DNA of 32,000 nt from Delftia acidovorans NBRC 14950 (GCF_001598795.1 NZ_BCZP01000009.1:240001-272000); one strand, 5' to 3'; positions 11,020-27,184 are shown, numbered from the stretch's first letter. Notes: a model not told the origin generated them from the letters alone. Numbers and translations: made by a program.

Positions 11020-11084
11020 GAAATGGAGCGAAGGGGGCGTTGCAGGAAATCCTTCGCCCAGTGTATCCGCGCCGCTGCCGGCTC

Positions 11085-11657: not shown

Positions 11658-11987
11658 TGCGATTCTCCAAACAGTTTTGTGAAGGGGACTGAAGCAGCGC
11701 ATTTTTGGGCTGCTGCTGGTACTACCCGCCATCGCATCGTTTGGATGCACCCCATGCAAAAATATTTTCGACAAATGCCAGCGCCAGACTCCATCAGACT
11801 GCGGTTGGTGACATTCTTGACCTGCAGCACCCGGGCCACCTCTCCCGAGGCGCGCGGCTCCCAGTAGGCCACGCGGCCGGTGAGCCAGGGCAGGGGAGAG
11901 AACTTGACGCCTGCTTCCCAACCATCATTGATGGAGGGCCTGAGGTTGCGATCCTGCGTGCGGCAGGCGTCGATGCCCGAGCCGATC

Positions 11988-12935
11988 TCAAAGATGGGCG
12001 AGCATGTCCTTTGACGGAACGAAGAAGGCAATGCCTGTCACCGCCGCCGAGAAGTCAAGGATGCGGTCATGGAGCGGGGGCGGGCTTCCGATGAACATCC
12101 GTTCGAGCATCTGCTCGATCACCCACAAGTGCCTGGAATAACCGATGAAATAGGTCCCGTACTCCTTGAGTGCAGGCCTCGCGAAGGGCATGTTGTCTCG
12201 CAGGATGTCGTGCTCGACGCCGTCCTGCGTGATGGTGCACAGCGTCTTGTGTGACTTCTGTTCCGCCTCCGAGGCATCGGGAAGCTCGGTGTTGGTGAAC
12301 TTCTTTCGTCCAATGATCTGCTCCTGGGCTTCGGTGCTCAGGCTTTTCCATGCCGGGAGGTCGTGGAGGTACTTCTGTACAACGACATAGCTTCCGCCCG
12401 CATGTTCAGGATCTTCCTCGCCCACTATCGTTGAGGCCGGCAGCGCCAGGCCGACTGGATTCGCCGTGCCATCGACAAAATCCAGCAGGTCGCGTCCGTC
12501 GAAGTACCGGAATCCGGCGACCTCATCCATGTCCGCGACTGTCCCTTCCAGGGCCTCCAGGAGCATCTGCTCGAACGCCACGATGAGATCCATGGACCTG
12601 GCGCGGATGTGGAACAGCAGGTCCCCCGAAGTAGAGACTGCCACATGGGTGGCGCCCCGGATTTCGCGGAATGGATGGAGCTCGGCTGGAAGCGGGGTAC
12701 CGACAAGCGGACCCCACACATCGGCACCGATGCCCACGTTGCAGGTAAAGGTCCCGGTCACGTCCCGTACAAGGACGTTCTTGATCAGGCCGTCCAGATC
12801 GCCGAGCACGGATCGCACGGTGGAGAGGGACGCTGCGTCTCTTGCAACGGTCAGGACCAGGAAGGATGCGGCGATCGACAGCGCTGCATCAATTTGCTGG
12901 GGCTCGGCCTGGCGCGGGATCGTAGGTGTGGTCAT
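11988..12935 (-). CDS. Dye-decolorizing (DyP-type) haem peroxidase
   Basis: 315 aa with FRYFDGRDLLDFVDGTANP (GxxDG motif), GGSYVVVQKY, GRKKFTNTEL, ILRDNMPF and GTYFIGYSR. There is no signal peptide. GC content is visibly lower than in flanking genes. Confidence 0.9.
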   Translation of the reverse strand: MTTPTIPRQAEPQQIDAALSIAASFLVLTVARDAASLSTVRSVLGDLDGLIKNVLVRDVTGTFTCNVGIGADVWGPLVGTPLPAELHPFREIRGATHVAVSTSGDLLFHIRARSMDLIVAFEQMLLEALEGTVADMDEVAGFRYFDGRDLLDFVDGTANPVGLALPASTIVGEEDPEHAGGSYVVVQKYLHDLPAWKSLSTEAQEQIIGRKKFTNTELPDASEAEQKSHKTLCTITQDGVEHDILRDNMPFARPALKEYGTYFIGYSRHLWVIEQMLERMFIGSPPPLHDRILDFSAAVTGIAFFVPSKDMLAHL

Positions 12936-12986
12936 TGGAAGTACCGGCAGATGGACGAGATGGGCGTCAGGGATGGCGCATTATCT

Positions 12987-13013
12987 GGCCCAACCGGCCC
13001 AACCGGCCCAACC
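12987..13013. repeat. Tandem 9-mer (ggcccaacc) x3 plus a partial fourth unit
   Basis: Read directly: ggcccaacc ggcccaacc ggcccaacc ggcacc. It lies 52 nt upstream of the DyP start codon (minus strand), in intergenic DNA. Confidence 0.85.
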
Positions 13014-13029
13014 GGCACCAGGAGCAACA

Positions 13030-13350
13030 TCACGGACGGTTTCGCCAGATCCTCACTCCCATTTTTTCGGCATCTTCCCGGTACTCCTGGATTTTCTGCT
13101 TCAGGTACTCCTGCAGCGGCCTGCCGACCAGGGAGTAGGGGTACAGGTCGAAGTTCTCCAGAAGTGCCATATAGCCAGGAAGGCCCATCGCCTTTTGCAA
13201 GGTCTCGGACCAGTAGCGTATTGCCGATGGAGGCGTGCCTGCCGCCATATAGAGACCCCTGACGGTCATCTGGGTCACATCGACGCCTTGCTCCGTTGCG
13301 GTCGGGATGTGCGCGAGTTTTCCGGGTACGCGGATAATCGCATCGGGATT
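13030..13350 (-). pseudogene. C-terminal fragment of a Bug/TctC-family periplasmic tricarboxylate-binding protein
   Basis: The in-frame translation PDAIIRVPGKLAHIPTATEQGVDVTQMTVRGLYMAAGTPPSAIRYWSETLQKAM...LQEYLKQKIQEYREDAEKMG matches the last ~105 aa of Bug proteins (...PT..EqG......w.G...p.GTP...). An in-frame stop at 13351-13353 removes the rest. Degraded upstream pieces may extend to about 13600. Confidence 0.6.
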
Positions 13351-13665
13351 TCAAGAGTAAATCATGCGGTGCGAAGTGTTCGATTTACGGCTGACTGCAT
13401 CGACGCATCCCTGTACCGTGCGCGGCCATGGATACACCGTCGTTTCGCAGCCAGCACATGCCAGTTCGCCCTTCCCAGGAGCTCCCGTTCTTAGGGCGTG
13501 ATCCGCTGGACCATGGCTGTGCGATCGCTGGGCTATGTCGAGTAACGTCTGCATGGTCGCCCTCTGCGCTAGCAGAACTTCGCCAGCCACGACGGTCAGC
13601 CATTGCCGAAGTAGTTCAGTTACGGTCGGTGAACTTAGCCTTCACGTCTTACGTGACTGAGCGGG

Positions 13666-14202
13666 TCAAGCACGAGCACTTATAACCAGCGCTTCAAGAT
13701 CAAGTAGAAATGACCTGATTTGTGACTCGTTCTCGGGTAGGCATAGAAACTTCACTGCGTCTTCCGGGGATTTCCCAATGAGCGGGATACGCAAAAACAG
13801 ATGTTCAAGAAAATTGCTGCTTACGGTCGAAAGTACCAGCCTCAGCGAAGCCAACATATCGTCACCTCGGTGCGATGCATGTACCAAGGCAATCGGCTTG
13901 CCGATCACTTCGACGCGTGAAACCAACCAGTCGATTGCATTCTTGAGGCCGCCGGGAATTGCACGGATGTATTCGGGGCTCGAGATGATGATGCAATCGT
14001 GTGCGCAGACAATTTCCAGGAATTCACGCACGGCCATGGGCGTTCTCTCCCCTTGCGCATCCGGCGAGAAAACGGGTAGTGCCTGGAGACCATGAAAAAC
14101 TGAGACATCAATGCCCAGCGGCGCCAGGTTTTTCATGGTTTGCAACAACGTCGTATTCGTGGATGCTTCGCGCGTACTGCCTGAAATAGCCAGGATTTTC
14201 AT
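13666..14202 (-). CDS. NADPH-dependent FMN reductase family flavoprotein
   Basis: MKILAISGSTREASTNTTLL...IIISSPEYIRAIPGGLKNAIDWL is the classic FMN_red pattern. AAAGAGGA lies upstream. The gene is markedly AT-richer than its neighbours. Its ATG overlaps the stop of the upstream MFS gene (ATGA at 14199-14202). Confidence 0.85.
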   Translation of the reverse strand: MKILAISGSTREASTNTTLLQTMKNLAPLGIDVSVFHGLQALPVFSPDAQGERTPMAVREFLEIVCAHDCIIISSPEYIRAIPGGLKNAIDWLVSRVEVIGKPIALVHASHRGDDMLASLRLVLSTVSSNFLEHLFLRIPLIGKSPEDAVKFLCLPENESQIRSFLLDLEALVISARA

Positions 14203-15398
14203 GATGTCCTCTTTGCTTGCCAAGCATCGGCCATGCCGGGCCGGCGTCCGGACCATGGCAGGCAGGCGCACAGCGCGATCAGGCCCAGCACCAATACCGC
14301 GCCTCCAAGCACGCCGAGGCCCGTACCGAAGGCCGCGCTCACGCCCATCGCCACCAGCGCTGCGCTGCCGATCTGACAGAACCCGACCAGCCCCGATGCA
14401 GTGGCCGCATGCCCGTGTTCGCTGGCGATGGCCCCGGACACGCCCAGCGACAGCGACGAGCCATTGGAGAGACTGACCAAGCACATCGGCAGCACCACGG
14501 CTGCCGCGCCCTGCAGCCCCGATTCCACCACGGCCGCGAATGCCACGCCGCCAAGCACGAAGCACACGACGCCGGCAAAGAGGATGCGGTCGTAGGGCCA
14601 GCGATCAAGCAGCTGCCTGGCAAGCAGGTTCGCGCCGATGATGCCCGCCGTCAGCGGCAGGTACAGCCAGCCGCTTTGTTCCTCGCTCAGCCCTTGGCGC
14701 GCAAAAAGAAACGGCGACTGGGTCAGGTAGACGAACCAGGCGCAATAGATCGCGCAGACCACCAGCGTATAGCGGCGAAAAATCCGGTCCCGCAGAACAT
14801 GACTGAAGCCAGCAAAGGGCGCGGTGCGGGTACGGGCGGCAGAGGGAAGCGTTTCCGGCAGCCACTTCATCACCATCAGCAGAGCCACGACGCCAAACGC
14901 AGCGACGAACAGGAAGTCAGACCGCCAGCCGAAAGCCGCAGCCAGGTGCCCGCCGATGGCAGGCGCCAGGGCGGGCGACAGCGACACCAGCGGGTAGATC
15001 ACCGCATAGACCTTGGCAGAGGTACGTTTGTCGCAGGTGTCGGCGATCAGTGCCCGGCCCACGACCAGGCCCGCAGCCGCGCCGACCGCTTGCAGCATGC
15101 GCCACGCCAGGAAACCGTTGTAGCTGGCGGAGATGGCGCAGCCCACCGAGCCGACGATGTAGAGAGCGATGCCAGCCAGCAGCACGGGCTTGCGGCCATT
15201 GCGATCCGACAGCGGGCCGTAGGCCAGCTGGGCAATTGCCAGTGCCAGCAGGTAGAACGAGACGGTCTGCGGCATCTGCCAGTCGGCAACGCCAAACTCC
15301 GTGGCCATGCCCGGCATGGCGGGCAGATAGACGTCCGACGCGATCAGGCCGAAGGCACTGAGCATGGCGACGGTCAAGGTGAAAGATAAGCGAGGCAT
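14199..15398 (-). CDS. MFS efflux transporter, Bcr/CflA drug-resistance subfamily
   Basis: SDVYLPAMPGMATEFG, LAYGPLSDRNGRKPVLLAG and 12-TM hydrophobic periodicity. The start at 15398 (MPRLSF...) is preferred, with an alternative ATG at 15461. Confidence 0.85.
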   Translation of the reverse strand: MPRLSFTLTVAMLSAFGLIASDVYLPAMPGMATEFGVADWQMPQTVSFYLLALAIAQLAYGPLSDRNGRKPVLLAGIALYIVGSVGCAISASYNGFLAWRMLQAVGAAAGLVVGRALIADTCDKRTSAKVYAVIYPLVSLSPALAPAIGGHLAAAFGWRSDFLFVAAFGVVALLMVMKWLPETLPSAARTRTAPFAGFSHVLRDRIFRRYTLVVCAIYCAWFVYLTQSPFLFARQGLSEEQSGWLYLPLTAGIIGANLLARQLLDRWPYDRILFAGVVCFVLGGVAFAAVVESGLQGAAAVVLPMCLVSLSNGSSLSLGVSGAIASEHGHAATASGLVGFCQIGSAALVAMGVSAAFGTGLGVLGGAVLVLGLIALCACLPWSGRRPGMADAWQAKRTS

Positions 15399-15499
15399 GG
15401 CAGTTCCTGGCAGCCAGGCGAACGGGCTGCGCGTCAAGGGTTCAGAAGGGATGAGCGCCATGCTACGGAGCTGCCTTCAATGTGAAAATGCACAAAATA

Positions 15500-15514
15500 G
15501 CAGCCTATAGCTGC
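15500..15514. promoter_or_regulatory. Candidate LysR-type operator dyad in the divergent MFS/LysR promoter region
   Basis: gcagc-ctata-gctgc is a perfect 5-bp dyad inside a larger imperfect palindrome (aaatagcagcctatagctgcatattt). It lies 30 nt upstream of the LysR ATG in an AT-richer spacer. No binding data are available. Confidence 0.3.
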
Positions 15515-15543
15515 ATATTTGCAGTACGAGCAATGGGGCAGCG

Positions 15544-16413
15544 ATGAATTGGGATGACGTGCGGATATTCCTGGCAATCCACCGTGCAGGCACCCTGCGT
15601 GGGGCGGCTCAGCAACTGGCCATCGACCAGACCACGGTGGGCCGGCGCCTGGCCGGGCTGGAGCGGTCGCTGGGCAGCCGGCTGTTCCTGCGCACCACGG
15701 GCGGCCTGGTGCTGGCCGGAACCGGCCAGGAAGTGCTGCGCATGGCCGAAGACATGGAGCGCATGGCCGTCTCCTTCGAGCGCCGCGGCGAAGGTGCCGA
15801 TGCGCGTGTGGCCGGGGAGGTGCGTGTGACCACCACCGACGCCTTGGCGGTGGATTTCGTGGTTCCCGCCCTCGAACACCTGCGTGCCCGCCATCCCGAG
15901 GTGCGGGTGATCCTGAGCACCACGAGGCGCCAGCTCGATCTAGCGCGACGGGAAGCCGACATTGCTGTCCGCACCCTGCGGCCGGAGCAACCGGACCTGA
16001 TCGTTCGCCAACTCGGCTGCTGGGAAGTGGGCTTGTACGCTACCGAAGGCTATCTGGCAAAAAATGGGGAACCGCAGCCCGGAAAAGGCTTTGCAGACCA
16101 CGACATCGCGCTCTACCAGGAGGGTGTGACCGGCCGGCAGGACGACACGCTGGCAGGTGAATCCAGGGCACAGGGTCGCATAGTTGCCGAACTGGATTCG
16201 AGCCTGATGCTTGCGACCTTCGTGCGCGCTGGCCTGGCCCTAGGCGAATTACCCGAATACGTGGCCCGACGCGACCCCACGCTGGTCAGGATGTGGCCGC
16301 AGTGCCAGCGGGCCAAGCCCTACGAGGCGTGGTTGGTGTTGCACCAGGACCTGGCGCGCACGGCCAGGGTGCGTGTCGTAGTGGAGTCGATCACCGCGGC
16401 TTTCGGCGATTGA
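15544..16413 (+). CDS. LysR-family transcriptional regulator (divergent from the MFS pump)
   Basis: MNWDDVRIFLAIHRAGTLRGAAQQLAIDQTTVGRRLAGLERSLGSRLFLR is a canonical LysR wHTH. A substrate-binding domain follows. Confidence 0.9.
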   Translation: MNWDDVRIFLAIHRAGTLRGAAQQLAIDQTTVGRRLAGLERSLGSRLFLRTTGGLVLAGTGQEVLRMAEDMERMAVSFERRGEGADARVAGEVRVTTTDALAVDFVVPALEHLRARHPEVRVILSTTRRQLDLARREADIAVRTLRPEQPDLIVRQLGCWEVGLYATEGYLAKNGEPQPGKGFADHDIALYQEGVTGRQDDTLAGESRAQGRIVAELDSSLMLATFVRAGLALGELPEYVARRDPTLVRMWPQCQRAKPYEAWLVLHQDLARTARVRVVVESITAAFGD

Positions 16414-16526
16414 AAGGCAGACATGTGCAAGCCACATATTTGATTTGGGTGGCGACGGCCGAGAGGCGATAAGGACGAGCAGCGTTTCATCTTCGAACAA
16501 TGAACTGAGCTGCGGGCAGTTCAGAT

Positions 16527-17655
16527 GTGAGCACCGAGGTGAGTGCTACGACCTTGGTCGTGGCCAAGCGCTTGGCGGATTCGGTGCGCGAATGGATCAA
16601 GCGCAATGAGTCCGATGAGGCTGTACCAGGGGACTCGAAGAACGATCGGCTATTCGACACCTGGCAGGACCATGGCGTCATCGACCTGAACCCGGCTACC
16701 GGGCAGGCTATCTGGCATGTGACAGTGCAAGGAGAGGCATCCGAAGCTGCGGCAGATCGAGGAGGTTATGAGCACGACCTGGCCATGCTGCGATTTCCCT
16801 TGGCCAAGGTCTTTTCGCACGAGAGCAAGTATCCGGCGCCCATGCAAGGCAGATTGGTCCTGCGGCAAAAACGCAAGGATGAGGCCGGTGAGGGCGCTGC
16901 CTCACAGCAGGCCGTGCAGCTGCAGATTCCTGCGGCAGGTTCTGGTGGTAAGGAGGATGCGGCAGGCCATGCACCCGAAGTTGCAGCATTACCAGCCAGT
17001 GCTCGCGCGCCTGCAGCTGCTCCCAAGGTGCCCAGCAAGCAGGAATTGAAGCTTGCGGCAGTCATGCGTGAACCGGCATTCAGGGCGCCACCTGGTACGG
17101 CAAAGCGGCCTGCGGCGAAATCCGAACGCGGAACCGGCGATGCGACCGAAGAAAGGCCCACGGCCGCCGAAGCCGGCGCGGGCCAGGGAGGAGGGCGGTG
17201 CGATGCGCGAGCAATCATCGGAAGCTGCCGCAGGCCTGGACGAGGCCCCGGCTTCGCCAGAGCCTCCAGCACCGCCTACCGCCCAAATTCTTTCATCCGA
17301 AACTGCCGCAATACCCACTGAGGCGGCCATGACACGCACGCCTGTATCCGCGGCAACGAAGCGCCATATGAGCGTAGCTGCGGAGTTTCGGAGCTTGAGC
17401 GACGAACTCGATGACTTGCCACCGGTCGTGGTGCGTTCCAGGACGGAGCCGCAGGCTTCACGCGCGGATGAGCCCCAGCCGGTGCTGCTCTTGCAGCAAC
17501 GACTCAAGATCGAAGGCCAGGAAAGGCCTGCGCACGAGCCCAGCGAGTTGGCGTTGGACTTCATGCGGTGGGTACAGCAGGGCTTGGTCGATCGTGCGTG
17601 GTTCTGGTGGAGCTTGGTCTGGAGTGGCTTGCGCAATCCTCATCAGGTGTTCTGA
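16527..17655 (+). pseudogene. Remnant of an ICE relaxase (MOBH / PFL_4751-type TraI): N-terminally truncated, frameshifted, C-terminally truncated
   Basis: Two overlapping ORFs in frames 0 and +1 (16527-17321 and 17053-17655). The first has ...LFDTWQDHGVIDLNPATGQAIWHVTV...LAMLRFPLAKVF. From memory this resembles the region after the HD domain of ICEclc/PFGI-1-type TraI (...VLQDHG.L.P..DGKAIW..TV...). An Ala/Pro/Glu-rich linker follows. The second ORF ends with LALDFMRWVQQGLVDR, which resembles the very start of the TraI_2_C domain, then terminates. The only start is GTG. The HD-domain part is absent. Confidence 0.5.
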
Positions 17656-17826
17656 AAGCTTAGCGCTGGAGTCAACGAAGAAACTTCTGAACATAACGTC
17701 CGCATAGTTGGTGAATGCTACCGATATGAGTCGCTTTAAAGCTCACTTTTCTGGCCGTCATTTGATTGATACGATGTATATTATGTTAAATAACAAACGC
17801 AGATAACGGCCTGAAAACCAAGTCAT

Positions 17827-17843: not shown

Positions 17844-17858
17844 TTGCCTGCTTCGTTT

Positions 17859-20057
17859 TCAGCTGTTCAAGGCGGTTTCCAGGCCTTCAAGCTCCTGCTT
17901 CAGCAAAAGCGCAGTTTCCTGTGGCTCGAACTGACGCTGCAGCAGCGGGATGGTGAAGACGTAGCTTGCATCGTGCACGCCGTGGGTTTCATCGCGGCGC
18001 AGGACGTAGGCCAGTTGCAGGCGCGCCAGGGACCGGCGCAAGGCCTGGGCCTGGCCGGTGGCGCCGTGGGACTGGACCAGGGCGTCGAGTGCGGTCAGGC
18101 TGGTCTGTCCTTGCTGGGCCGTGTGATAGACGGCGATGCGGTCCAGGCGGCAGGCCTGTTCGTCGGTGCTCAAGCGGCCCCATCCCACCAGCGCGTCCTG
18201 CACGGGCTGGGATGCCATGGCCTGGCGCAGGTGGCGTTCTTCGATGACGCGTTCGTCGGGCCCCAGGGCTTCCAGGCATTCCTGGCAGAGGATGGCGACC
18301 AGGTTGGCGCGCCTGCCGCTGGCCTCTATCAGCCGCTCGGCCAGAGCGTCGTTGGCAAAGCCCAGGCGCAGCCTGCGCAGCGGTTCGGTGGCCAGGGCGT
18401 GACATGCCGCTGGCTCCAATCCACCAATGGCCAGGATTTCGCCGAAGTTGCGCAGCGGCGATTGGTAGTCGAGCAGCGCTGCCGCGTACAGATCCCAGAA
18501 TCCCGCCAGCATGAACCAGCAACGGCCCTCCTCGCTCAGCGCGCGCAAGGCGCTGAGCTGGGGGTAGCCATTGCGGGCTTCGTCGCGGAAGAACAGGTCG
18601 GCCTCGTCGATCAGCAGGTACAGCCGCCTGCCCTGCGACTGCTTTTGCAGGTGTTCGATGATGGCCTCCAGCGGTGTTTCCACGGGAAGGCCGAACTGCG
18701 TGGCCAGGCGCGGCGTAAGGCGGTGGTCGCGCAGCGAGATGTAGTGGCAGGCGATGGCCGGATGCTCCTGCAGCCGCCGCTGCACGGCCTTGAGCAGGCT
18801 GCTTTTGCCGAGCTGGCGTCCTCCCACGACCAGGTAGTTGGCCGGTTCGCGGTTGAGCACGCGGGCCAGCAGGCGCTCGCGGCCAAAGAAAACGTCCTCG
18901 CGCGTCACGCCGCCGCGCGTCTGGTAGGGCGATATGCGCGTGACCTGCAGCTGCGTGGCCAGCAGCCGCAGCAGCACCTGGTCCGGAGCGCCGCCCAGCA
19001 GCCATTCGGTCTGCCCCGGGCTGTCCAGCAGCACGTGCAGGTTGGCGCGGTCCTGGGCATGGCGCTGCAGCAGCGGCATGGGCGACTGGGGATGGTGCGA
19101 GCTCACGATGAGCACCACATCGCCGCCGGTTTGCAGCAGGCGCAGCTGGCGCACGAGTTCGCCCTCTTCCAGCTCCGCTGGGGGCGCATAGACCAGGCAA
19201 CGGCCCAGGGCGATGGGCAGCTCGGGCGGCAGCGTCCACTCGAACATGTCGCCGGGCACGGGCCACTCGCCTTGCGCCGGTTTGCAGACGGCGGACAGGC
19301 GTTCGGCCAGCGCCCGCACGCGGGCGCCTGGGCTTGCGCCGGCAAGGCGCAGGGCCCGCTGCCAGTCCGGCGGGCGTATGCCCGCAGCGCGCAAGACGGC
19401 GGAACGGCGGCCGGTGAGCTGCAGCAGCCGGTCCAGCTGGGGCAGATGCTGGTAGGGCTTGCGGCGCAGGCGCTCGGGCTTGAGCTGTGCCGGGCCTATC
19501 AGCGGATGGCGCACCAGCCACAGCAGGGCCAGGCAGCCAAAGACCAGTGCGCTGGTCCAGATGACGCTGCGCAGCCATCCAAAGGGTTCATGCTCGGGCT
19601 GGCCCGGCGAGGGGCTGCAGTTCAGCGGCAGGTAGCGCGGCGGAGTCGGAGGCAGGCCGCCCTGGCAGCTCCAGTCCCAGCGTTGCCTGTCCAGTTGCAG
19701 CAGGACCTGGGTTCCGGCGAGCACGCCCATCTGGCTGTCGCGCACCACGTCCGCCTGCAGCACGAATGGACTGGGCGAGCTCATGCGCACGCGTGGTTCG
19801 GCAATGTCCGGCGCCACGCTGGCCAGGTCCTGCGGCCAGCTTTCATGCTGGCGCACATAGTCCATCAGGGCCAGGCGCCACAGGATGATTTCGTTCCAGA
19901 CCCGGCCCGAGCTTTCCGCGCCCTGCAGGCTGCTGCGGGTGACGGGGTTGTAGCGGGGCAGCAGGATGGCCGTGCCGATGAACAGCGTGACCAAGGCGAG
20001 CAGCGCGGCGCGCCACCAGGATCTGGGCAGTTGCACAAGCCGACCCAGGCCGCTCAT
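17859..20057 (-). CDS. Two-TM membrane protein with a pilin-like Cys-pair ectodomain and a cytoplasmic Arch_ATPase/ORC-like AAA+ ATPase (uncharacterised architecture)
   Basis: 732 aa. TM1 is residues ~14-33 (WWRAALLALVTLFIGTAILL). The ectodomain is ~34-160 and ends ...RWDWSC(131)QGGLPPTPPRYLPLNC(147). TM2 is ~161-182 (WLRSVIWTSALVFGCLALLWLV). It has FFGRERLL-x-...VVGGRQLGKSS (Walker A, nt 18801-18824) and GRRLYLLIDEAD (Walker B, nt 18597-18617). Amino-acid composition is protein-like, whereas the antisense 781-aa ORF looks like a shadow. Confidence 0.8.
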   Translation of the reverse strand: MSGLGRLVQLPRSWWRAALLALVTLFIGTAILLPRYNPVTRSSLQGAESSGRVWNEIILWRLALMDYVRQHESWPQDLASVAPDIAEPRVRMSSPSPFVLQADVVRDSQMGVLAGTQVLLQLDRQRWDWSCQGGLPPTPPRYLPLNCSPSPGQPEHEPFGWLRSVIWTSALVFGCLALLWLVRHPLIGPAQLKPERLRRKPYQHLPQLDRLLQLTGRRSAVLRAAGIRPPDWQRALRLAGASPGARVRALAERLSAVCKPAQGEWPVPGDMFEWTLPPELPIALGRCLVYAPPAELEEGELVRQLRLLQTGGDVVLIVSSHHPQSPMPLLQRHAQDRANLHVLLDSPGQTEWLLGGAPDQVLLRLLATQLQVTRISPYQTRGGVTREDVFFGRERLLARVLNREPANYLVVGGRQLGKSSLLKAVQRRLQEHPAIACHYISLRDHRLTPRLATQFGLPVETPLEAIIEHLQKQSQGRRLYLLIDEADLFFRDEARNGYPQLSALRALSEEGRCWFMLAGFWDLYAAALLDYQSPLRNFGEILAIGGLEPAACHALATEPLRRLRLGFANDALAERLIEASGRRANLVAILCQECLEALGPDERVIEERHLRQAMASQPVQDALVGWGRLSTDEQACRLDRIAVYHTAQQGQTSLTALDALVQSHGATGQAQALRRSLARLQLAYVLRRDETHGVHDASYVFTIPLLQRQFEPQETALLLKQELEGLETALNS

Positions 20058-21304
20058 GCCTGCAGCACCGCCACGGCGGCTTCGCGGGCAATGTCGCAGC
20101 GCCAGTGCAGATGGGCACCCTCACCTGCTCCGCGCACCTGCAGCAGATTGCCCCAGAACAGGCGCCGCAGCACGGCATCCTGCAGATAGGGGCGTGCACG
20201 GCCCAGCGATGCCGCATCCACCAGCCCGCGCAGTTGCTCGCGCGTGGCAGGTTCCTGCGCCAGGGGCAGCAAGGTCTGCCACAGGCGGGCGCTGGCCACC
20301 AGATGGGCGCGCAGCAGGGGCGAGTGCACGGAAGCGACGCCCACGCCCTGCTCCATCAGCCATTGCAGCGCTTCCTCGAAAAGCGCGGGATGCCCGCCCG
20401 TCAGCGCCTGCAATGCCTCGATGACCTCGGCCGGCCAGGCCGTGCCGGGCCAGCGCTGGTGCGCCATCAGGGCCAGGTCTTCCAGCGTGGGATCGGGCCA
20501 GTGGGCCACCTGGCCGATGTTGAGCAGCGACAGGTCACCGCTGCGGTACTTGAGGTCGGCCAGGGCCTCGCTGCCGCACAGCAGCAGGTGCAGGCGGCCG
20601 CTGTGCATTTCGCTGAGGCTGCGCAGAATGCCGGCCAGTGTCTCGCGCAGCTGCGCCGTGCCCTGCTCGAAGCGGCTGACCAGGCAGAACAGCCGGCCGC
20701 CGGCCAGCAGGCGCTTTTCCAGCAGGGCCTCGAATTCGTAGTCCGAGCCCACTTCGCCCAGCCCGCATTGCCGGCCCAGGGCCGCAAAGTAGTCGGCCGC
20801 AGCCGTGCTCACGCTGTAGGGCGGCTGGATGTGCAACACCGCCTCGGCGCCATACTGGGCGCGGGCGCGCAGCAGCAGTTCCTGGCGAAACGGGGGCTGC
20901 CCCCAGTGCGCGGGCGACAGCAGCATGGTGATGGCATAGGGCCGGGCATGGGCCAGCTGGGCGAAAAGCCGGTCCATGAAGCCTGCAAAAGGCTGGGCGC
21001 CAGCGGCGGCGGCCTGCAGCGGAAACTCCGTGGCAAAGCCAGCGGCGGAGAACAGGCGATTGGTCTCCGCCTCCGTCAGACGCAGGTACTGGGCGCAGGC
21101 GGCCAGCCGGTCGCGCGAGCGCGGATTGGGCAGGGAAACCCCATTCCTCCAGTTGTTGACGGCTTCCCGGCTCAGCCCGATCTCGGTGGCCACGCCCGAG
21201 GCGCTGGCGCGGATGCGGCGCATGTACAGCCCCAGCAAATGGCCGAAATCCTCGTGAACGCCTGGTGCCACGGCAGCTCCCTGTTCAATGGCGGTGGGCT
21301 GCAT
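20054..21304 (-). CDS. XRE-type HTH protein fused to a degenerate (P-loop-less) STAND/AAA-like domain
   Basis: 416 aa. The HTH is FGHLLGLYMRRIRASASGVATEIGLSREAVNNWRNGVSLP. The central region aligns by eye with the neighbour's ATPase core but has SPAHWGQPP instead of GGRQLGKSS and LVSRFE instead of LIDEAD. A TGGHPALFEEAL lid-like motif is present. Its stop overlaps the start of the 732-aa gene (ATGA at 20054-20057). Confidence 0.8.
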   Translation of the reverse strand: MQPTAIEQGAAVAPGVHEDFGHLLGLYMRRIRASASGVATEIGLSREAVNNWRNGVSLPNPRSRDRLAACAQYLRLTEAETNRLFSAAGFATEFPLQAAAAGAQPFAGFMDRLFAQLAHARPYAITMLLSPAHWGQPPFRQELLLRARAQYGAEAVLHIQPPYSVSTAAADYFAALGRQCGLGEVGSDYEFEALLEKRLLAGGRLFCLVSRFEQGTAQLRETLAGILRSLSEMHSGRLHLLLCGSEALADLKYRSGDLSLLNIGQVAHWPDPTLEDLALMAHQRWPGTAWPAEVIEALQALTGGHPALFEEALQWLMEQGVGVASVHSPLLRAHLVASARLWQTLLPLAQEPATREQLRGLVDAASLGRARPYLQDAVLRRLFWGNLLQVRGAGEGAHLHWRCDIAREAAVAVLQA

Positions 21305-21451: not shown

Positions 21452-22273
21452 TCAGGATGCGGCATCGCCGCCACCCTGCCCCGCAAACTCCCGTCGCGCG
21501 CCGGCCATGCGGTACAGAGGCAGCACCACCGCCAGCACCAATCCCAAAGCCAGCCAGAACCACAGGCCCTTGCCTCTGAAGGCCAGGGCCGCAATGACGG
21601 TGAAGGCCACGGCCTCGCACAGCCCGCGAAAGCCGGCCCGCAGCATGAACAGCCCCACGATGCCCTGCACGGGCGACACGCCGCTCTTGCGCAGGCTGGC
21701 CATGGTGTCCAGCAGGGCCTGCACGGATTCCTGGGCCTGGCGGTCACGCTCCTGGTCCCGCTCGCGCAGCCGGGTGATGGCCATGGGCTGGGCCGGATTG
21801 GTCAGGGCGGTGCCGTCGGCGCCCTCTTCCTGGCCGGGCTGCGGATAGACCTCGCCATCCGTATCGACCAGCACCTGGCGCTCCGGGTAACGGGACAGCC
21901 AGGCGTGGTGGCTGACCCATTGGCCAGCATCGAAGTGGTAGCGCTCGCTCTCGCCCACCTGGTCGTAGAAGACATGCAGCACCGCCGCCTGCAGGCCGTG
22001 CTGGAACAGCGTCTCCAGCAATCGCCAGGGCATGCCGGCCGTGGTGCGGGTGTCAAAGCCCAGCTCCAGGTGCTGGGGATGGCCCAGGGCGCTGGCATTG
22101 GCCCAGTCGTCATCCCACAGCGCGGACCGGTCCAGGGCGGGGTCCAGCTCATGGATCCAGCGCTCGGCCTGCTCCCAGGACTGCCGGGCCAAGTACTGGC
22201 AGATCAGTTGCACGCGGCGCAGCTGCAGGGGCGTATCGAAGAAAAGATAGAGGTGATGGACGTTGCTGGACAT
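21452..22273 (-). CDS. Hypothetical membrane-anchored protein (soluble N-domain, charged linker, two C-terminal TM helices)
   Basis: The frame is open from 22504, but residues before MSSNVHHLYLFFDTPLQL (ATG at 22273) are Arg/Cys/Gly-rich and look non-coding. The C-terminus has GIVGLFMLRAGFRGLCEAVAFTVIAALAF and LWFWLALGLVLAVVLPLY. No family was recognised and there is no clear SD. Confidence 0.55.
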   Translation of the reverse strand: MSSNVHHLYLFFDTPLQLRRVQLICQYLARQSWEQAERWIHELDPALDRSALWDDDWANASALGHPQHLELGFDTRTTAGMPWRLLETLFQHGLQAAVLHVFYDQVGESERYHFDAGQWVSHHAWLSRYPERQVLVDTDGEVYPQPGQEEGADGTALTNPAQPMAITRLRERDQERDRQAQESVQALLDTMASLRKSGVSPVQGIVGLFMLRAGFRGLCEAVAFTVIAALAFRGKGLWFWLALGLVLAVVLPLYRMAGARREFAGQGGGDAAS

Positions 22274-22478
22274 GGCGGGCCTGAGGCGTTTGCAGGAATG
22301 CCGCGATTGTTCAATTGCAGCCGCCAGCCGGCCCTCCCAGGCCTGTCCAGCAGGCGGCTGGCAGGCGCTCCCACCGGTTGACATTCTGTCCACTGCAAGA
22401 AGCGGGATGCAGGCGCTGCGGCGGCGCCCTAGACTGCGGCAATTGCCCACAGCGCCCATACCGCCAACCGCGCCCGCC

Positions 22479-23210
22479 ATGCACAACCTCCGTCTTTTCG
22501 ACAACGAAGCTTGCGAATCCGCCCCGCCCGGCCACTGGACGCAGATGGAGCACCAGCTCGATGAGCAAGGCTGCGCGCGCCTGCCCGGCCTGCTGGATGC
22601 GCAGCAGTGCCGCGACCTGGCCGCTCTTTACGCAAGGGAGGACGGCTTTCGCTCCCGCATCGTCATGGCACGCCACGGTTTCGGGCGCGGCGAGTACCAA
22701 TATTTCGACTACCCCTTGCCACCGCTGCTGCAGCGCCTGCGCGAGCAGCTGTATCTGCGCCTGGCGCCGGTGGCCAATCTCTGGAACCAGCGCATGGGGC
22801 TGGAGGTGCGCTATCCGGACCGGCTGCAGGACTTCCTGGCGCGCTGCCACGCGCAGGGCCAGTTGCGGCCCACGCCGCTCATCCTTCAATACGGTGCGGG
22901 CGACTACAACTGCCTGCACCAGGATGTCTATGGAGAGCATGTGTTTCCGCTGCAGGTGGTGCTGCTGCTGTCGCGGCCCGCGCGGGACTTCACGGGTGGC
23001 GAGTTCGTCATCACCCAGGCCGATGGCGACCGGCAGCGGGCCGATGTGATGGCACTGGACCAGGGCGATGCGCTGGTCCTGGCCGTGCGCCACCGGCCCG
23101 TGCCCGGGCGGCGCACCGGCTACCGCCGCGTGGCCATGCGCCATGGGGTCAGCCGCATCCACAGCGGCCATCGCCATACCGTGGGGCTGATCTTTCATGA
23201 CGCACTTTGA
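22479..23210 (+). CDS. 2OG-Fe(II) oxygenase superfamily protein (COG3826 / 'Oxygenase-NA'-like, alkB-associated)
   Basis: MHNLRLFDNE... It has an HxD in CLHQDVYGEHVFPLQVVLLLSRPARDFTGGEFV, the distal His in MRHGVSRI, and Arg in GHRHTVGLIFHD. The family assignment is from memory of alkB-linked oxygenases. Confidence 0.75.
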   Translation: MHNLRLFDNEACESAPPGHWTQMEHQLDEQGCARLPGLLDAQQCRDLAALYAREDGFRSRIVMARHGFGRGEYQYFDYPLPPLLQRLREQLYLRLAPVANLWNQRMGLEVRYPDRLQDFLARCHAQGQLRPTPLILQYGAGDYNCLHQDVYGEHVFPLQVVLLLSRPARDFTGGEFVITQADGDRQRADVMALDQGDALVLAVRHRPVPGRRTGYRRVAMRHGVSRIHSGHRHTVGLIFHDAL

Positions 23211-23222
23211 TGGATGGCCGGT

Positions 23223-23873
23223 ATGAGCACGCTGGATCTTTTCGCCGATGAACATCCCACCGGGGCCGAATCCATAGGTCCGCAATCCGTGGTGCTGCGC
23301 GGCCATGCCCTGCCCCATGCCGTGCAGTTGCTGGAGGCGGTCGAAGGCATTGCGGCGCGGGCGCCGCTGCGCCATCTGGTTACGCCGGGCGGCTTCACCA
23401 TGTCGGTGGCCATGACCAACTGCGGCGCGCTGGGCTGGACCAGCGACAGGCGCGGCTACCGCTACAGCGCCATCGACCCACTCAGCGGCCAGCCCTGGCC
23501 GGCCATGCCGGCCGTGTTTGTCCGGCTGGCGGGCGAGGCGGCCGCTGCGGCGGGGTTCGATGGCTTTGTGCCCGATGCCTGCCTCATCAACCAGTACCTG
23601 CCCGGCACCCGGCTTTCCCTGCACCAGGACCGCGACGAACACGACCTGGGCGCGCCCATTGTCTCGGTGTCCCTGGGCATGCCCGCCACGTTTCTGTTTG
23701 GAGGACTGGCGCGGACAGACAGCACGGCCAGGGTGCCGCTGCAGCATGGCGACGTGGTGGTCTGGGGCGGTGTGGATCGGCTGCGCCACCACGGCGTGTT
23801 GCCGCTCAAGGACCAGCCTCACCCGCTGCTGGGCGGGCGGCGCATCAATCTCACTTTTCGCAAGGCGGGCTGA
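23223..23873 (+). CDS. alkB: Alpha-ketoglutarate-dependent DNA/RNA alkylation-repair dioxygenase AlkB
   Basis: MSTLDLFADE..., GWTSDRRGYRYS, PWPAMP, ACLINQYLPGTRLSLHQDRDE (HxD), VSVSLG, WGG..RLRHHGV and RINLTFRKAG match E. coli AlkB blocks. An alternative ATG lies at 23214. Confidence 0.9.
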   Translation: MSTLDLFADEHPTGAESIGPQSVVLRGHALPHAVQLLEAVEGIAARAPLRHLVTPGGFTMSVAMTNCGALGWTSDRRGYRYSAIDPLSGQPWPAMPAVFVRLAGEAAAAAGFDGFVPDACLINQYLPGTRLSLHQDRDEHDLGAPIVSVSLGMPATFLFGGLARTDSTARVPLQHGDVVVWGGVDRLRHHGVLPLKDQPHPLLGGRRINLTFRKAG

Positions 23874-24575
23874 ATGGTTGGACGGTCTGAAATGGATAGG
23901 CTCAACGGCCAGGATCGCTTCGCCCGCCTGGATTGGGCGCGGATTGCCGCTGAGCTCGATGCCGAAGGCCATGCCCGGCTGCCGCAGCTGCTGACTGCGG
24001 ATGAAAGCCGCGCCTTGGCCCGCGAGGCGGCAGCCGCGTCTGGCCTGCCGCCCTGCGTGCAGGCATGGCGCCCGGTGCTGTACGGGCATCTGCTGGCCCT
24101 GGCCAACCGCTGGCGCGAACACATGGGCATGATGCCTGGGTTGCCAGGCTGCTTCGAGGATTTCATGCGTCCGGGCCGGCAAGCAGGCCAAACGCAGCCA
24201 CAGCCACATCTGCTGCGCGTGCCGCAAGCGGGTCATGCCCCGCTGCGTTCATACAGCGAAGGTGCGGCGGTGTTTCCGCTGCAGCTGGTGCTGCTGCTGT
24301 CCCGGCCGGGCCAGGATTTCGAGGGCGGCGAATTCGTGATGACCGAGCAGCGCCCGCGCATGCAATCGCGCCCCATGGTGCTGCCGCTGGGCCTGGGGGA
24401 TGCGGCCATCATCGCCACGGGGCCGCGCCCGGTGCGCGGTGCGGCGGGCTTTTACCGCGTGCATCTGCGGCATGCCATCAGCCGCGTTCACCGTGGCGAG
24501 TGGCTGGGTCTGGAGCTGCTTTTGCACGACGTGCCCCAGGCGCCAAAGGCTCTGCAAACGGACCGCTGGCTATAA
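23874..24575 (+). CDS. Degenerate paralog of the 22479-23210 oxygenase (predicted catalytically inactive)
   Basis: It shares ARLPxLL and VFPLQLVLLLSRPGQDFEGGEFVMTEQ with the upstream paralog. However, it has PLRSYSEGAA where the paralog has CLHQDVYGEH (His and Asp both lost). It also has GEWLGLELLLHD where the paralog has GHRHTVGLIFHD. Its ATG directly abuts the alkB stop. Confidence 0.7.
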   Translation: MVGRSEMDRLNGQDRFARLDWARIAAELDAEGHARLPQLLTADESRALAREAAAASGLPPCVQAWRPVLYGHLLALANRWREHMGMMPGLPGCFEDFMRPGRQAGQTQPQPHLLRVPQAGHAPLRSYSEGAAVFPLQLVLLLSRPGQDFEGGEFVMTEQRPRMQSRPMVLPLGLGDAAIIATGPRPVRGAAGFYRVHLRHAISRVHRGEWLGLELLLHDVPQAPKALQTDRWL

Positions 24576-25027: not shown

Positions 25028-27184
25028 ATGTTCGAAATGCATTCTTCCTTTTCCAGGGTTTCCAGCGCTCGCGCTGCCCAGTCCCTTTCCGTGCGGCTGA
25101 GCCCGCTGGCCCTGGCCTGCGCCTTCATCTGCCTGCCGGCGCAGGCTCAAACACAAACGCCCACGCCAACGCCCCCATCAACCGCCCTGCCCGAGGTCCA
25201 GGTCACCGGCCAGGCCGAACGCATCGGCCAGCAACTGGCCCAGCCTGCGCGCTCTGCCAGCCATACCGGCGTCTCCAACCAGGAAGTGCCGGCCAGCGTG
25301 GACGGCGTCTCTGCCGAGCAGATGCAGGAGCGCGGCGACTACGCCCTGGTGGACGCCGTCACGCGCACCGTGGGCCTGACCTCCAGCAGCACGCCGGGCA
25401 ACGGCGGCCTGGCCTTCAGCAGCCGCGGCTTTGCGGGTGTCAATTCCGTGGGCGTGGCCGAAGACGGCATGGTGCTGGGCGTGGCCGCCGGCACCACGGC
25501 GTATCCGGGTGACAGCTGGGGCTACGAGCGCATCGAAGTGCTGCGCGGCCCGGCCTCGCTGATGTATGGCAGCGGCACCATGGGCGCCACGGTCAACGCC
25601 TTCCGCAAGCAGCCCAGCCGCACCAGCTCGGCCGAGGTGCTGGTGGGCGCGGGCACGGACGACACGCTGCGCCTGGGCCTGGGCGTGACCGGCGCCCTGG
25701 GCGCCTATGCCAGCTACCGTATCGACAGCTACACCGCCCGCAGCGCAGGCGAGCGCGATCTGGACCAGTCGCGCAACGGCAAGTTCATGAGCACGCTGCG
25801 CTTGGAGCCCACGAGCGACCTGCAGATCGACCTGATCGCCGACCGCAGCGTGCAAAAGCCCAGCCGCTACTGGGGCACGCCGGGCCTGAGCGGCAAGGTG
25901 GTGGAGTCGCTGCGCGACCGCAATTACAACGCCGAAGACAGCGTGCTGCGCTATGCCGACGAGCGCCTGCGCGCCAAGGTGCAATGGAAGGCCAATGACT
26001 GGCTGACGGTGCGCAACGAGCTGTACCACGTGAAGTCCGACCGCCACTGGCGCAACATCGAGGCCTACGCGCTCAACCCCGCCACCTGGACCGTGGGCCG
26101 CTCCGACTACCTGGAAATCCTGCACGACCTGGAGCAGACCGGCAACCGCCTGGGCCTGAACGTGGACCGGGGCTCGCACAAGATCGCCATGGGCTGGGAG
26201 GCCGCGCGCATCAACCTGCGGCTGTCCAACAACTCGCCCTATGGTGGCTCGTCCACGGTCTCGGCCTGGGATCCCGTGCATGGCAGCTGGGCCAGCCCCG
26301 ATCTCACCGCCGCCAAGACAGAAACCGGCGTGACCCAGCATGCCCTGTACCTGGAAGATGCCTGGCGCATCAGCAACCGCTGGCTGGCCATGGCCGGCCT
26401 GCGCCGCGATGTCTACGACTTTGCCAGCCACTCGCTGGTGGGCGGCACGGATTTCAACAAGACGCTGGCCGCCACCTCCTGGCGCCTGGGCCTGACCTAT
26501 GAGCTGGCCCGCAACACCCATGTCTATGGGCAGATCAGCTCGGGACACGATCCCGTCAACAGCCTGGTGTCGCTGAACCTGGCCAACACGGCTTACAAGC
26601 TGAGCAAGGGCCGCCAGGCCGAGATCGGCATCAAGCAGCAGGTGGCTGGCGGGCGCGGCGAATGGACGCTGGCCGTGTTCGACATCAAGAAGGACAACAT
26701 CATCACGCGCGACCCGGACCGCCCGGCCATCTCCATTCAGGGCGGCAGCCAGTCCTCGCGCGGGGCGGAAGCCACCGCCACCTTCCAGGCCACGCCCGCC
26801 CTGCGCCTGGAGGGCAACCTGTCCTATGTGGACGCCCAGTTCGACAAGCTCATCGAGGCCGGCGGCAACCGCGCAGGCAACCGTCCGCAGAACGTGGCCA
26901 AGACCACGGCCAACCTTTGGGGCCACTACCGCGTGGGCGCCTGGCAGGCCTCGCTGGGCCTGCGCTACGTGGGTGACCGCTTTGGCAACAACGCCAATAC
27001 CGTGAACCTGCCCGCCTACACCGTGGCCGACGCCGCGCTGAGCTGGCAGGTGGACCCGCGCACCACCCTGAGCCTGATCGGCCGCAACCTGGCCGACAGG
27101 GTCTATGTGGGATCGAGCTACGGCAGCCAGTTCCTGGTCGGGCAAGGCCGCCGCTTCGAGATCGCGGCGCATATCCGGTTCTGA
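25028..27184 (+). CDS. TonB-dependent outer-membrane receptor, cobalamin-riboswitch controlled (BtuB-like by context)
   Basis: 718 aa. It has a signal peptide ending PAQAQ, a plug region (LPEVQVTGQAE, IEVLRGPASLMYGSG), a long beta-barrel and a terminal Phe (...FEIAAHIRF). An alternative start lies at 25037. Confidence 0.9.
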   Translation: MFEMHSSFSRVSSARAAQSLSVRLSPLALACAFICLPAQAQTQTPTPTPPSTALPEVQVTGQAERIGQQLAQPARSASHTGVSNQEVPASVDGVSAEQMQERGDYALVDAVTRTVGLTSSSTPGNGGLAFSSRGFAGVNSVGVAEDGMVLGVAAGTTAYPGDSWGYERIEVLRGPASLMYGSGTMGATVNAFRKQPSRTSSAEVLVGAGTDDTLRLGLGVTGALGAYASYRIDSYTARSAGERDLDQSRNGKFMSTLRLEPTSDLQIDLIADRSVQKPSRYWGTPGLSGKVVESLRDRNYNAEDSVLRYADERLRAKVQWKANDWLTVRNELYHVKSDRHWRNIEAYALNPATWTVGRSDYLEILHDLEQTGNRLGLNVDRGSHKIAMGWEAARINLRLSNNSPYGGSSTVSAWDPVHGSWASPDLTAAKTETGVTQHALYLEDAWRISNRWLAMAGLRRDVYDFASHSLVGGTDFNKTLAATSWRLGLTYELARNTHVYGQISSGHDPVNSLVSLNLANTAYKLSKGRQAEIGIKQQVAGGRGEWTLAVFDIKKDNIITRDPDRPAISIQGGSQSSRGAEATATFQATPALRLEGNLSYVDAQFDKLIEAGGNRAGNRPQNVAKTTANLWGHYRVGAWQASLGLRYVGDRFGNNANTVNLPAYTVADAALSWQVDPRTTLSLIGRNLADRVYVGSSYGSQFLVGQGRRFEIAAHIRF

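What the first reader, a model, noticed from the sequence alone, without database searches (positions are those of the whole stretch)
17859..21304. Translationally coupled pair: HTH/pseudo-ATPase protein plus membrane-anchored pilin-like AAA ATPase, matching no named system I know
- **Arrangement:** two minus-strand genes overlap by ATGA (20054-20057).
- **Upstream protein (416 aa):** XRE-type HTH, then a core resembling the neighbour's ATPase domain but without Walker A or B, then a TGGHP lid-like helical region.
- **Downstream protein (732 aa):** TM helix, then a ~125-aa ectodomain with a terminal Cys pair, then a second TM helix. A ~200-aa unassigned cytoplasmic region follows, then FFGRE...GGRQLGKSS / LYLLIDEAD (Arch_ATPase/ORC-Cdc6-like P-loop), then a helical tail.
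- **Novelty:** I cannot map this two-protein architecture to a known two-component, secretion, conjugation or anti-phage system.
- **Context:** the pair sits next to a decayed ICE relaxase and an AT-rich junction, so it is accessory DNA.
- **Working hypothesis (inference only):** an envelope- or pilus-associated sensor NTPase partnered with a DNA-binding inactive paralog, serving defence or envelope-stress signalling.
Basis: partly seen in the sequence, partly recalled or inferred. Interest (0 to 1): 0.85.

Follow-up and report, generated by a model that had tools for sequence, protein, structure and literature searches.

The report
Membrane ATPase paired with dead DNA-binding twin
Two overlapping genes encode a membrane-anchored ATP-driven switch whose outer part is folded like a bacterial pilus subunit, together with a catalytically dead copy of the same kind of ATPase that carries a DNA-binding module; they are always found together in several groups of soil and water bacteria, look like a signalling device that carries a signal from the cell envelope to DNA, and match no named system.

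Summary
On the minus strand, P2 (20054-21304; 416 aa) and P1 (17859-20057; 732 aa) overlap by ATGA. P2 is an XRE helix-turn-helix fused to a dead AAA+ domain, with no Walker A or B in any of 16 homologues. P1 runs TM1, then a periplasmic domain with an invariant C131/C147 pair, then TM2, then a cytoplasmic domain, then an active AAA+ (GGRQLGKS, LLIDEAD, intact in all homologues), then a winged helix. Structure searches put both ATPase cores in the ORC/Cdc6/STAND-like class. The cytoplasmic domain resembles nuclease folds, but no catalytic motif was found. The P2-P1 pair is adjacent and co-directional in 58 of 58 related loci (Comamonadaceae, Oxalobacteraceae, Pseudomonas), usually with an upstream tail-anchored protein. 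No known defence or other system matches, and the neighbouring genes carry no defence markers. The 'decayed ICE relaxase' was not found. The 'AT-rich junction' is the chromosome's dif site (17774-17791), where filamentous phages insert in other Delftia strains. Best reading: a membrane-to-DNA AAA+ signalling complex whose trigger is unknown (~0.4). Main rival: an anti-phage system (~0.3).

The parts
17859..20057 (-). P1: bitopic membrane AAA+ NTPase, 732 aa
   Evidence: ORF; nSTAND1/AAA_22; ORC/Cdc6/NLR structural hits
19950..20018 (-). P1 TM1 (residues ~14-36), the pilin alpha1-N-like helix
   Evidence: hydropathy; long helix 12-32 continuing to 38-71 in the AF2 model
19578..19949 (-). P1 periplasmic type IV pilin-like domain (residues 37-160) with invariant C131-C147 pair (D-region-like)
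   Evidence: VIA-align: 8tum_e T4P Z 9.1, rmsd 2.9 over 105 residues; 1qve Z 8.6; 1ay2 Z 8.4; Cys invariant
19494..19577 (-). P1 TM2 (residues ~161-188)
   Evidence: hydropathy; helix 160-183
18939..19367 (-). P1 cytoplasmic nuclease-like (PD-(D/E)xK-fold-like) domain (residues ~231-373); no canonical catalytic motif seen
   Evidence: VIA: Cdn1 nuclease domain 8z4i Z 8.7, AF1548 1y88 Z 8.5, R.BspD6I small subunit 2p14 Z 8.0; region 241-534 aligns to Avs4 19-345, Z 9.1; sequence inspection
18258..18923 (-). P1 AAA+ NTPase (residues ~379-600) with Walker A 18801-18824 (GGRQLGKS, K418) and Walker B 18597-18617 (LLIDEAD)
   Evidence: motifs invariant in 16 homologues; ORC/Cdc6 Z ~10
17874..18170 (-). 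P1 C-terminal winged-helix domain (residues ~630-728)
   Evidence: VIA hits to BrxR 7t8k, MecI 1okr, TA0346
20054..21304 (-). P2: XRE-HTH plus catalytically dead AAA+ (ORC/STAND-like) protein, 416 aa
   Evidence: HTH_31, AAA_35; no Walker A/B in 16 homologues; ORC/Cdc6/NLR fold; atlas TM 0.70 to HTH+AAA_35 clusters
21053..21250 (-). P2 XRE-type HTH (residues ~19-84)
   Evidence: HTH_31; invariant recognition-helix residues
20054..20057 (-). ATGA overlap: P2 stop TGA and P1 start ATG (translational coupling)
   Evidence: sequence; same 4-nt overlap in Delftia loci L076-L079
21452..22276 (-). Third cassette gene: P0243-like tail-anchored membrane protein (~274 aa; start inferred at M77 of the 350-aa ORF), conserved upstream of P2 in 48 of 58 loci
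   Evidence: BLASTP 43% identity to the Acidovorax homologue P0243; tblastn across loci
17774..17791 (+). Chromosomal dif (XerCD) site, 68 bp beyond the P1 stop; integration point of filamentous phages in other Delftia strains
   Evidence: pattern search; hybrid vs chromosomal dif in L072-L079

Best explanation
The pair is the core of a horizontally spread three-to-four-gene operon. The gene order is: a tail-anchored membrane protein (P0243-like); in Comamonadaceae, also a small 3-TM protein; then P2; then P1. The operon encodes a membrane-to-DNA signalling complex built from AAA+ parts. P1 is a bitopic inner-membrane receptor NTPase. Outside the cell its type IV pilin-like domain, with a disulfide-bounded D-region-like loop, faces the periplasm and would sense an extracytoplasmic cue. 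Inside, P1 carries a nuclease-like domain, an active ORC/Cdc6/STAND-like AAA+ and a winged helix. P2 is made from the same operon transcript by translational coupling. It is a catalytically dead member of the same AAA+ class, fused to an XRE DNA-binding HTH. Proposed mechanism (inferred): the cue changes P1's nucleotide state. P1 then builds a mixed oligomer with P2, with active and inactive subunits side by side, as in ORC or clamp loaders. P2's HTH then binds DNA, so the output is gene regulation or DNA targeting tied to the membrane. The nature of the cue is unknown. It could be an envelope or pilus contact or an invading phage; in the last case this would be a conflict-type system.
For: Domain anatomy: TM-pilin fold-TM. 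Active Walker A/B in every P1 homologue; none in any P2 homologue. Both AAA+ cores match ORC/Cdc6/NLR structures, a class in which active and inactive subunits assemble together. The pair is co-directional and adjacent in 58 of 58 loci, with the ATGA overlap. A P1 cytoplasmic part plus P2 complex got weak support (ipSAE 0.58 vs 0.00 for controls; passes the mark, partner pLDDT >=80). Sequence conservation is highest in the NTPase (77%) and lowest in the periplasmic region (40%), whose Cys pair is nevertheless invariant: the pattern of a receptor. The conserved upstream gene is a tail-anchored membrane protein, and in Comamonadaceae a 3-TM protein as well. Together they point to a membrane-assembled complex. 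Contigs from RNA libraries contain the cassette, a weak hint that it is transcribed.
Against: No target genes, operator or trigger were identified. The scan for inverted repeats and promoters gave only chance-level hits. The nuclease-like domain of P1 does not fit a pure transcription relay, and its catalytic motif is unresolved. The complex prediction is weak and may come from likeness to solved AAA+ heteromers. Every functional step is inferred; none is shown.
Confidence: 0.4

Rival explanations
1. Anti-phage defence of the Avs/STAND kind, acting by abortive infection. P1's nuclease-like domain is an effector that is released or activated when P1 oligomerizes after sensing a phage, perhaps at the envelope through the pilin-like domain. 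P2's HTH adds a DNA-binding or inhibitory role.
For: P1 region 241-534 aligns to the N-terminal nuclease plus NTPase of Avs4 (Z 9.1). Atlas clusters of P1 relatives carry DpnII restriction-enzyme domains. PF20703 nSTAND1 is a clade first described in conflict systems (PMC8195603). Spread is patchy: 5 of 301 Comamonadaceae genomes, 41 of 67 Acidovorax. The locus moves between genera. In Delftia it sits at dif, a hotspot where filamentous phages integrate.
Against: No defence-system genes sit around the locus: a PADLOC scan of 81 neighbour proteins from 7 diverse loci gave only generic ABC-ATPase hits. P1 lacks the large C-terminal sensor (TPR/LRR/WD40) typical of Avs/NLR. No canonical PD-(D/E)xK catalytic motif was found. 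P1 is absent from sequenced phage genomes.
Confidence: 0.3
2. Cargo of a dif-integrating mobile element (IMEX/inovirus), for example a superinfection-exclusion module against filamentous phages.
For: In Delftia the cassette ends 68 bp from dif. Inoviruses (Zot, REP_ORF2-G2P, Phage_DNA_bind genes) are integrated at that dif in L077-L079 and in the IMG/VR UViGs L072-L075.
Against: The cassette is also present, with an intact chromosomal dif, in the window genome and in Delftia L076, where there is no phage. The inovirus lies on the far side of dif, away from the cassette. In Acidovorax and Pseudomonas the cassette is not next to an E. coli-type dif.
Confidence: 0.1
3. A DNA-replication, segregation or terminus function related to ORC/Cdc6 initiators: a membrane-tethered initiator-like AAA+ that, with P2, binds specific chromosomal DNA (e.g., near ter/dif in Delftia).
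For: Best structural matches are ORC/Cdc6 with a winged helix. P2 binds DNA via its HTH. The cassette lies at dif in Delftia.
Against: The genes are accessory and patchy, not essential housekeeping. The locus is not at dif in other genera. No origin-like sequence features were seen.
Confidence: 0.05

Closest known systems
ORC/Cdc6 initiator AAA+ proteins (archaeal Orc1/Cdc6, eukaryotic ORC)
   Same: AAA+ core with a C-terminal winged helix. These are the top structural matches for both P1 and P2. Their complexes mix active subunits with subunits that have lost Walker motifs (e.g., Orc2/Orc3), as P1 plus P2 would.
   Different: P1 is membrane-anchored with a periplasmic pilin-like domain and a nuclease-like domain. 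The DNA-binding module is an XRE HTH on the dead partner. These are bacterial accessory genes with no sign of a replication role.
Antiviral STAND proteins (Avs; e.g., Avs4 with an N-terminal Mrr-like nuclease)
   Same: A nuclease-like domain sits N-terminal to the NTPase; P1 region 241-534 aligns to Avs4 19-345. Both are STAND-like NTPases with patchy distribution.
   Different: No large C-terminal sensor. P1 carries a membrane anchor and a periplasmic domain. Its partner is a dead HTH-AAA+ paralog. No defence-island context was found.
nSTAND1 clade (Pfam PF20703; Kaur/Aravind conflict systems)
   Same: P1 passes the nSTAND1 gathering cut-off. Atlas neighbours are nSTAND1/AAA_22 clusters.
   Different: The described nSTAND1 contexts (EACC1, TRADD-N/bDLD systems) carry varied effectors; this membrane-pilin architecture with an HTH partner was not found described.
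STAND transcription regulators (MalT, AfsR/SARP-NB-ARC) and HTH-XRE+NB-ARC(+TPR) proteins
   Same: A STAND-like NTPase gates a DNA-binding HTH. P2 folds like HTH+AAA_35/NB-ARC cluster members (TM 0.70).
   Different: Here the HTH sits on a catalytically dead AAA+ encoded as a separate protein. The active NTPase is a different, membrane-anchored protein.
Type IV pilins / pseudopilins (PilA, PilE, GspG)
   Same: Fold of the P1 periplasmic domain: an alpha1 helix that starts as a TM segment, a beta-sheet, and a disulfide-bounded D-region (C131-C147 invariant).
   Different: No class III prepilin leader or cleavage site (no N_methyl Pfam hit). The domain is followed by a second TM and cytoplasmic domains, so it cannot be assembled into a pilus.
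FtsH and membrane-tethered one-component regulators (ToxR, CadC)
   Same: Topology: TM, periplasmic domain, TM, cytoplasmic AAA+ as in FtsH; a membrane receptor coupled to DNA binding as in ToxR and CadC.
   Different: There is no protease domain, and the AAA+ belongs to a different clade. ToxR and CadC carry their own wHTH and have no ATPase.

Membership tests
nSTAND1 (PF20703) NTPase clade | Profile match to PF20703 above the gathering threshold | tested here: met
   29.0 bits vs cut-off 27.1, E 1.1e-6
nSTAND1 (PF20703) NTPase clade | Placement inside the nSTAND clade on an NTPase phylogeny | not testable with these tools
STAND NTPase superfamily | P-loop NTPase with intact Walker A/B followed by helical and winged-helix domains | tested here: met
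   GGRQLGKS and LLIDEAD invariant; C-terminal winged-helix hits 630-728; NLR/Apaf-type structural matches
STAND NTPase superfamily | Large C-terminal sensor (TPR/LRR/WD40 repeats) | tested here: not met
   Only ~100 aa of winged helix after the NTPase
Antiviral STAND (Avs) | N-terminal effector domain (e.g., PD-(D/E)xK nuclease) | tested here: inconclusive
   Nuclease-like fold at 231-373 (Z 8.0-8.7) and Avs4-like alignment; no canonical catalytic (D/E)xK motif
Antiviral STAND (Avs) | Found in defence islands / next to other defence systems | tested here: not met
   PADLOC on 81 neighbour proteins from 7 loci: only generic ABC-ATPase hits; no defence genes in window context
Known anti-phage systems (PADLOC-DB 2.0) | Any PADLOC model matching P1 or P2 convincingly | tested here: not met
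   Only PDC-S01 at E 1.1e-3 on the generic ATPase region of P1; nothing on P2
Type IV pilin | Pilin fold with disulfide-bounded D-region | tested here: met
   8tum_e Z 9.1, 1qve Z 8.6, 1ay2 Z 8.4; C131/C147 invariant
Type IV pilin | Class III signal peptide with prepilin-peptidase cleavage site, so that it is assembled into a pilus | tested here: not met
   No N_methyl Pfam hit; the N-terminus lacks the G-F-x-x-x-E motif and TM2 follows the domain
ORC/Cdc6 initiator clade | AAA+ with C-terminal winged helix, structurally closest to Orc/Cdc6 | tested here: met
   Top Foldseek/VIA hits for both P1 and P2
ORC/Cdc6 initiator clade | Replication-origin binding / initiator role | not tested
   No experimental or origin-sequence data
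dif-integrating inovirus / IMEX cargo | Cassette lies inside the element, between hybrid dif sites, and is absent when the phage is absent | tested here: not met
   Cassette present with chromosomal dif and no phage in the window and in L076; the phage lies on the far side of dif

The most novel reading that the evidence does not exclude
P1 is a pilin-mimicking contact receptor in the inner membrane. Its pilin-like periplasmic domain could be engaged by pilus machinery or by the coat or receptor-binding proteins of pilus-dependent phages (such as the filamentous phages that integrate at the adjacent dif in Delftia). Engagement would trigger P1's ATPase to assemble with P2, and the HTH output would then shut down or reprogram the infected cell: an envelope-sensing immune receptor of a type not yet described.
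Probability: 0.1. Interest if true: 0.8.

Novelty: new variant of a known kind. Interest (0 to 1): 0.5.

Why it matters
This would be a bacterial STAND/ORC-type AAA+ system that carries a periplasmic, pilin-folded input domain across the membrane. A paralog with a dead ATPase supplies the DNA-binding output. This split of active and inactive AAA+ subunits is known from ORC and clamp loaders but, as far as we found, not from bacterial membrane signalling. If it senses envelope or pilus contact, it would be a new route from the cell surface to an NLR-like switch, relevant both to bacterial immunity and to how STAND proteins gain inputs. It is widespread in environmental Burkholderiales and Pseudomonas, so the model is testable now in genetically tractable Acidovorax, Delftia or Pseudomonas.

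Tried and rejected
1) 'Decayed ICE relaxase' next to the pair: no relaxase or mobilization domain in any window ORF near the locus (Pfam). The only structure there is the chromosomal dif site. 2) The cassette as part of a filamentous phage: rejected, because it is present without the phage and with an intact chromosomal dif. P1 is also absent from INPHARED phage genomes. 3) Defence-island context: a PADLOC scan of neighbour proteins gave mad3, AriA and GajA hits. The mad3 model finds 57-118 generic ABC ATPases per genome, so these hits are not defence signals. Targeted PADLOC scans of 10 large unknown neighbours: nothing. 4) Operator search: inverted repeats and promoter or terminator hits at chance level only. 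5) Atlas sequence-feature searches for P1 189-392 and for P0243 were uninformative. 6) The N-terminal sensor region (1-195) finds only P1 orthologues, so it is not a shared sensor domain. 7) The complex prediction gave weak support (0.58 vs controls 0.00). This may reflect likeness to solved AAA+ heteromers, so it is not counted as evidence of binding. 8) No E. coli-type dif near P1 in the Acidovorax or Pseudomonas loci, so dif adjacency is specific to Delftia. 9) The 781-aa + strand ORF (17844-20189) and 529-aa ORF (17989-19578) overlapping P1 are antisense artefacts: codon-usage scoring favours P1.
Full report
What was checked. The window holds two minus-strand ORFs, 20054-21304 (P2, 416 aa) and 17859-20057 (P1, 732 aa). 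P2's TGA stop overlaps P1's ATG start in ATGA; the same 4-nt overlap is seen in other Delftia loci. The overlapping + strand ORFs of 781 and 529 aa are antisense artefacts: a codon-usage model trained on Pfam-confirmed genes of the window favours P1.

P1 anatomy:
- TM1 at residues 14-36 and TM2 at 161-188, with a positive-inside pattern that implies the N-terminus and the C-terminal ~540 aa are cytoplasmic.
- AlphaFold2 (mean pLDDT 74, 16-sequence alignment) shows TM1 running into a long helix (38-71), then a beta-sheet (90-133). VIA-align over all solved-structure clusters matches this periplasmic part to type IV pilins: 8tum_e (PAO1 T4P) Z 9.1, rmsd 2.9 over 105 residues; 1qve Z 8.6; 1ay2 Z 8.4; 6gut Z 8.4.
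- C131 and C147 are invariant in 16 homologues, so the domain plausibly has a pilin-like disulfide-bounded D-region.
- There is no prepilin leader: no N_methyl Pfam hit, and TM2 follows the domain. It is a pilin-like fold fused into a bitopic receptor, not a pilus subunit.
- Cytoplasmic region 231-373: weak-to-middling matches to nuclease folds (Cdn1 nuclease domain Z 8.7, AF1548 Z 8.5, R.BspD6I small subunit Z 8.0). P1 region 241-534 aligns to the N-terminal nuclease plus NTPase of Avs4 (8dgf, Z 9.1). A canonical (D/E)xK motif was not found; D313, D336 and N339 are conserved.
- NTPase (379-721): ORC/Cdc6, clamp-loader and NLR matches at Z about 10. Walker A GGRQLGKS (K418) and Walker B LLIDEAD are intact in all homologues. 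It passes the nSTAND1 gathering score.
- C-terminus (630-728): winged-helix matches.
- Conservation is highest in the NTPase (77% mean identity) and lowest in the N-terminal and periplasmic part (39-40%). The N-terminal region 1-195 finds only P1 orthologues in the protein collection.

P2 anatomy. P2 is an N-terminal XRE HTH (HTH_31; invariant recognition-helix residues) followed by an alpha/beta domain, a helical region and a winged helix. Foldseek matches it to ORC/Cdc6/CED-4/NLR structures (TM about 0.4). In the ESM Atlas it matches HTH+AAA_35 and HTH+NB-ARC(+TPR) clusters at TM 0.70. None of 16 homologues (55-99% identity) has a Walker A, and most lack Walker B. P2 is therefore a catalytically dead member of the same AAA+ class as P1. 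There is no significant sequence similarity between the two, so they are distant structural relatives, not recent paralogues.

Conservation and spread.
- Homologues of both proteins at 50-99% identity come from the same contigs in Delftia, Acidovorax, Giesbergeria, Massilia, Undibacterium, Pseudomonas (nitroreducens group) and Tahibacter.
- In all 58 loci fetched with P1 from a genome collection, a P2 homologue lies immediately upstream on the same strand.
- A third gene, a tail-anchored membrane protein with no known domain (P0243-like; window 21452-22276), sits upstream of P2 in 48 loci. A small 3-TM protein (P0244-like) is present in 41 loci, in Comamonadaceae but not in Delftia or the window.
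- The operon is patchy: 5 of 301 Comamonadaceae genomes and 41 of 67 Acidovorax genomes. Its flanks differ between genera (aconitase, AtuA, hybrid histidine kinase, MetH and others), so it has moved horizontally.
- Contigs assembled from RNA libraries contain the whole cassette, a weak hint that it is transcribed.

Context in the window. The window lies at the replication terminus: cumulative GC skew peaks around 20-25 kb. The 'AT-rich junction' is the genome's single dif site (ATGTATATTATGTTAAAT, 17774-17791), 68 bp past P1's stop. In Delftia genomes the locus order is TonB receptor, two Oxygenase-NA genes plus a 2OG oxygenase, then the P0243-like gene, P2, P1, and dif. In three Delftia assemblies and four IMG/VR 'viral' contigs, a filamentous phage (genes with Zot, REP_ORF2-G2P, Phage_DNA_bind and DUF2523 domains) is integrated at that dif. 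The junction is a hybrid dif site. The window genome and another Delftia strain carry the cassette with an intact chromosomal dif and no phage. So the cassette is chromosomal and sits next to an integration hotspot; it is not phage cargo. The region on the other side of dif varies between strains. No ICE relaxase was found.

Known systems. Pfam, NCBIfam and PADLOC give only domain-level hits. PADLOC on 81 neighbour proteins from 7 diverse loci gave only generic ABC-ATPase hits. Literature: nSTAND1 was described in conflict systems (PMC8195603, PMC7159879). A 2026 survey reports defence and non-defence STAND clades interleaved, including transcription regulators (10.64898/2026.01.04.697583). 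Nothing describing this architecture was found.

Interpretation. The best-supported reading (confidence about 0.4) is a membrane-to-DNA AAA+ signalling complex:
- P1's pilin-like periplasmic domain senses an extracytoplasmic cue.
- The cue controls P1's NTPase.
- P1 co-assembles with the translationally coupled, dead HTH-AAA+ P2, in the mixed active/inactive style of ORC or clamp loaders.
- P2 binds DNA.
A folding prediction of the P1 cytoplasmic part with P2 gave weak support (0.58 vs controls 0.00); it is not relied on. The main rival (about 0.3) is an Avs-like anti-phage system using P1's nuclease-like domain. It is supported by the Avs4 likeness and by DpnII-fused relatives. It is weakened by the lack of a C-terminal sensor and of any defence neighbours. 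All functional steps are inferred; none is shown. Its context claims are corrected. Its functional idea remains open.

Noticed in passing
window 17774-17791 (+): Chromosomal dif (XerCD) site, the only copy in the genome, at the GC-skew terminus. Filamentous phages integrate here in other Delftia strains.
   Followed up: yes
L077-L079, L072-L075 (Delftia assemblies and IMG/VR UViGs): An integrated inovirus (Phage_DNA_bind, REP_ORF2-G2P, Zot, DUF2523 genes) joined to the chromosome through a hybrid dif site right after P1.
   Followed up: partly
window 22263-24575 (+): Two Oxygenase-NA (PF09859, 'oxidative methylation of damaged DNA') genes and a 2OG-Fe(II) oxygenase, divergent from the cassette. 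In Delftia they are conserved next to it; they are absent from the Acidovorax loci.
   Followed up: no
window ~9610-17760: An ~8 kb region between the porin and dif (RskA anti-sigma, DyP peroxidase, FMN reductase, MFS, LysR, an unknown 270-aa ORF) that another Delftia strain lacks; it has instead CheW/MCP genes. This points to a variable terminus region.
   Followed up: partly
window 25028-31811: TonB-dependent receptor, periplasmic binding protein, FecCD permease, ABC ATPase and CbiX-like genes: a siderophore/heme-uptake cluster.
   Followed up: no
window 444-2696 (+): Molybdopterin (xanthine dehydrogenase-like) large subunit.
   Followed up: no
window 17844-20189 (+) and 17989-19578 (-): Long antisense ORFs over P1 that are artefacts of high GC content; automated annotation could mis-call them.
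   Followed up: yes
Acidovorax loci, e.g. L002 8150-8632: A small 3-TM protein (P0244-like) conserved between the P0243-like gene and P2 in Comamonadaceae cassettes; absent from Delftia and the window.
   Followed up: partly
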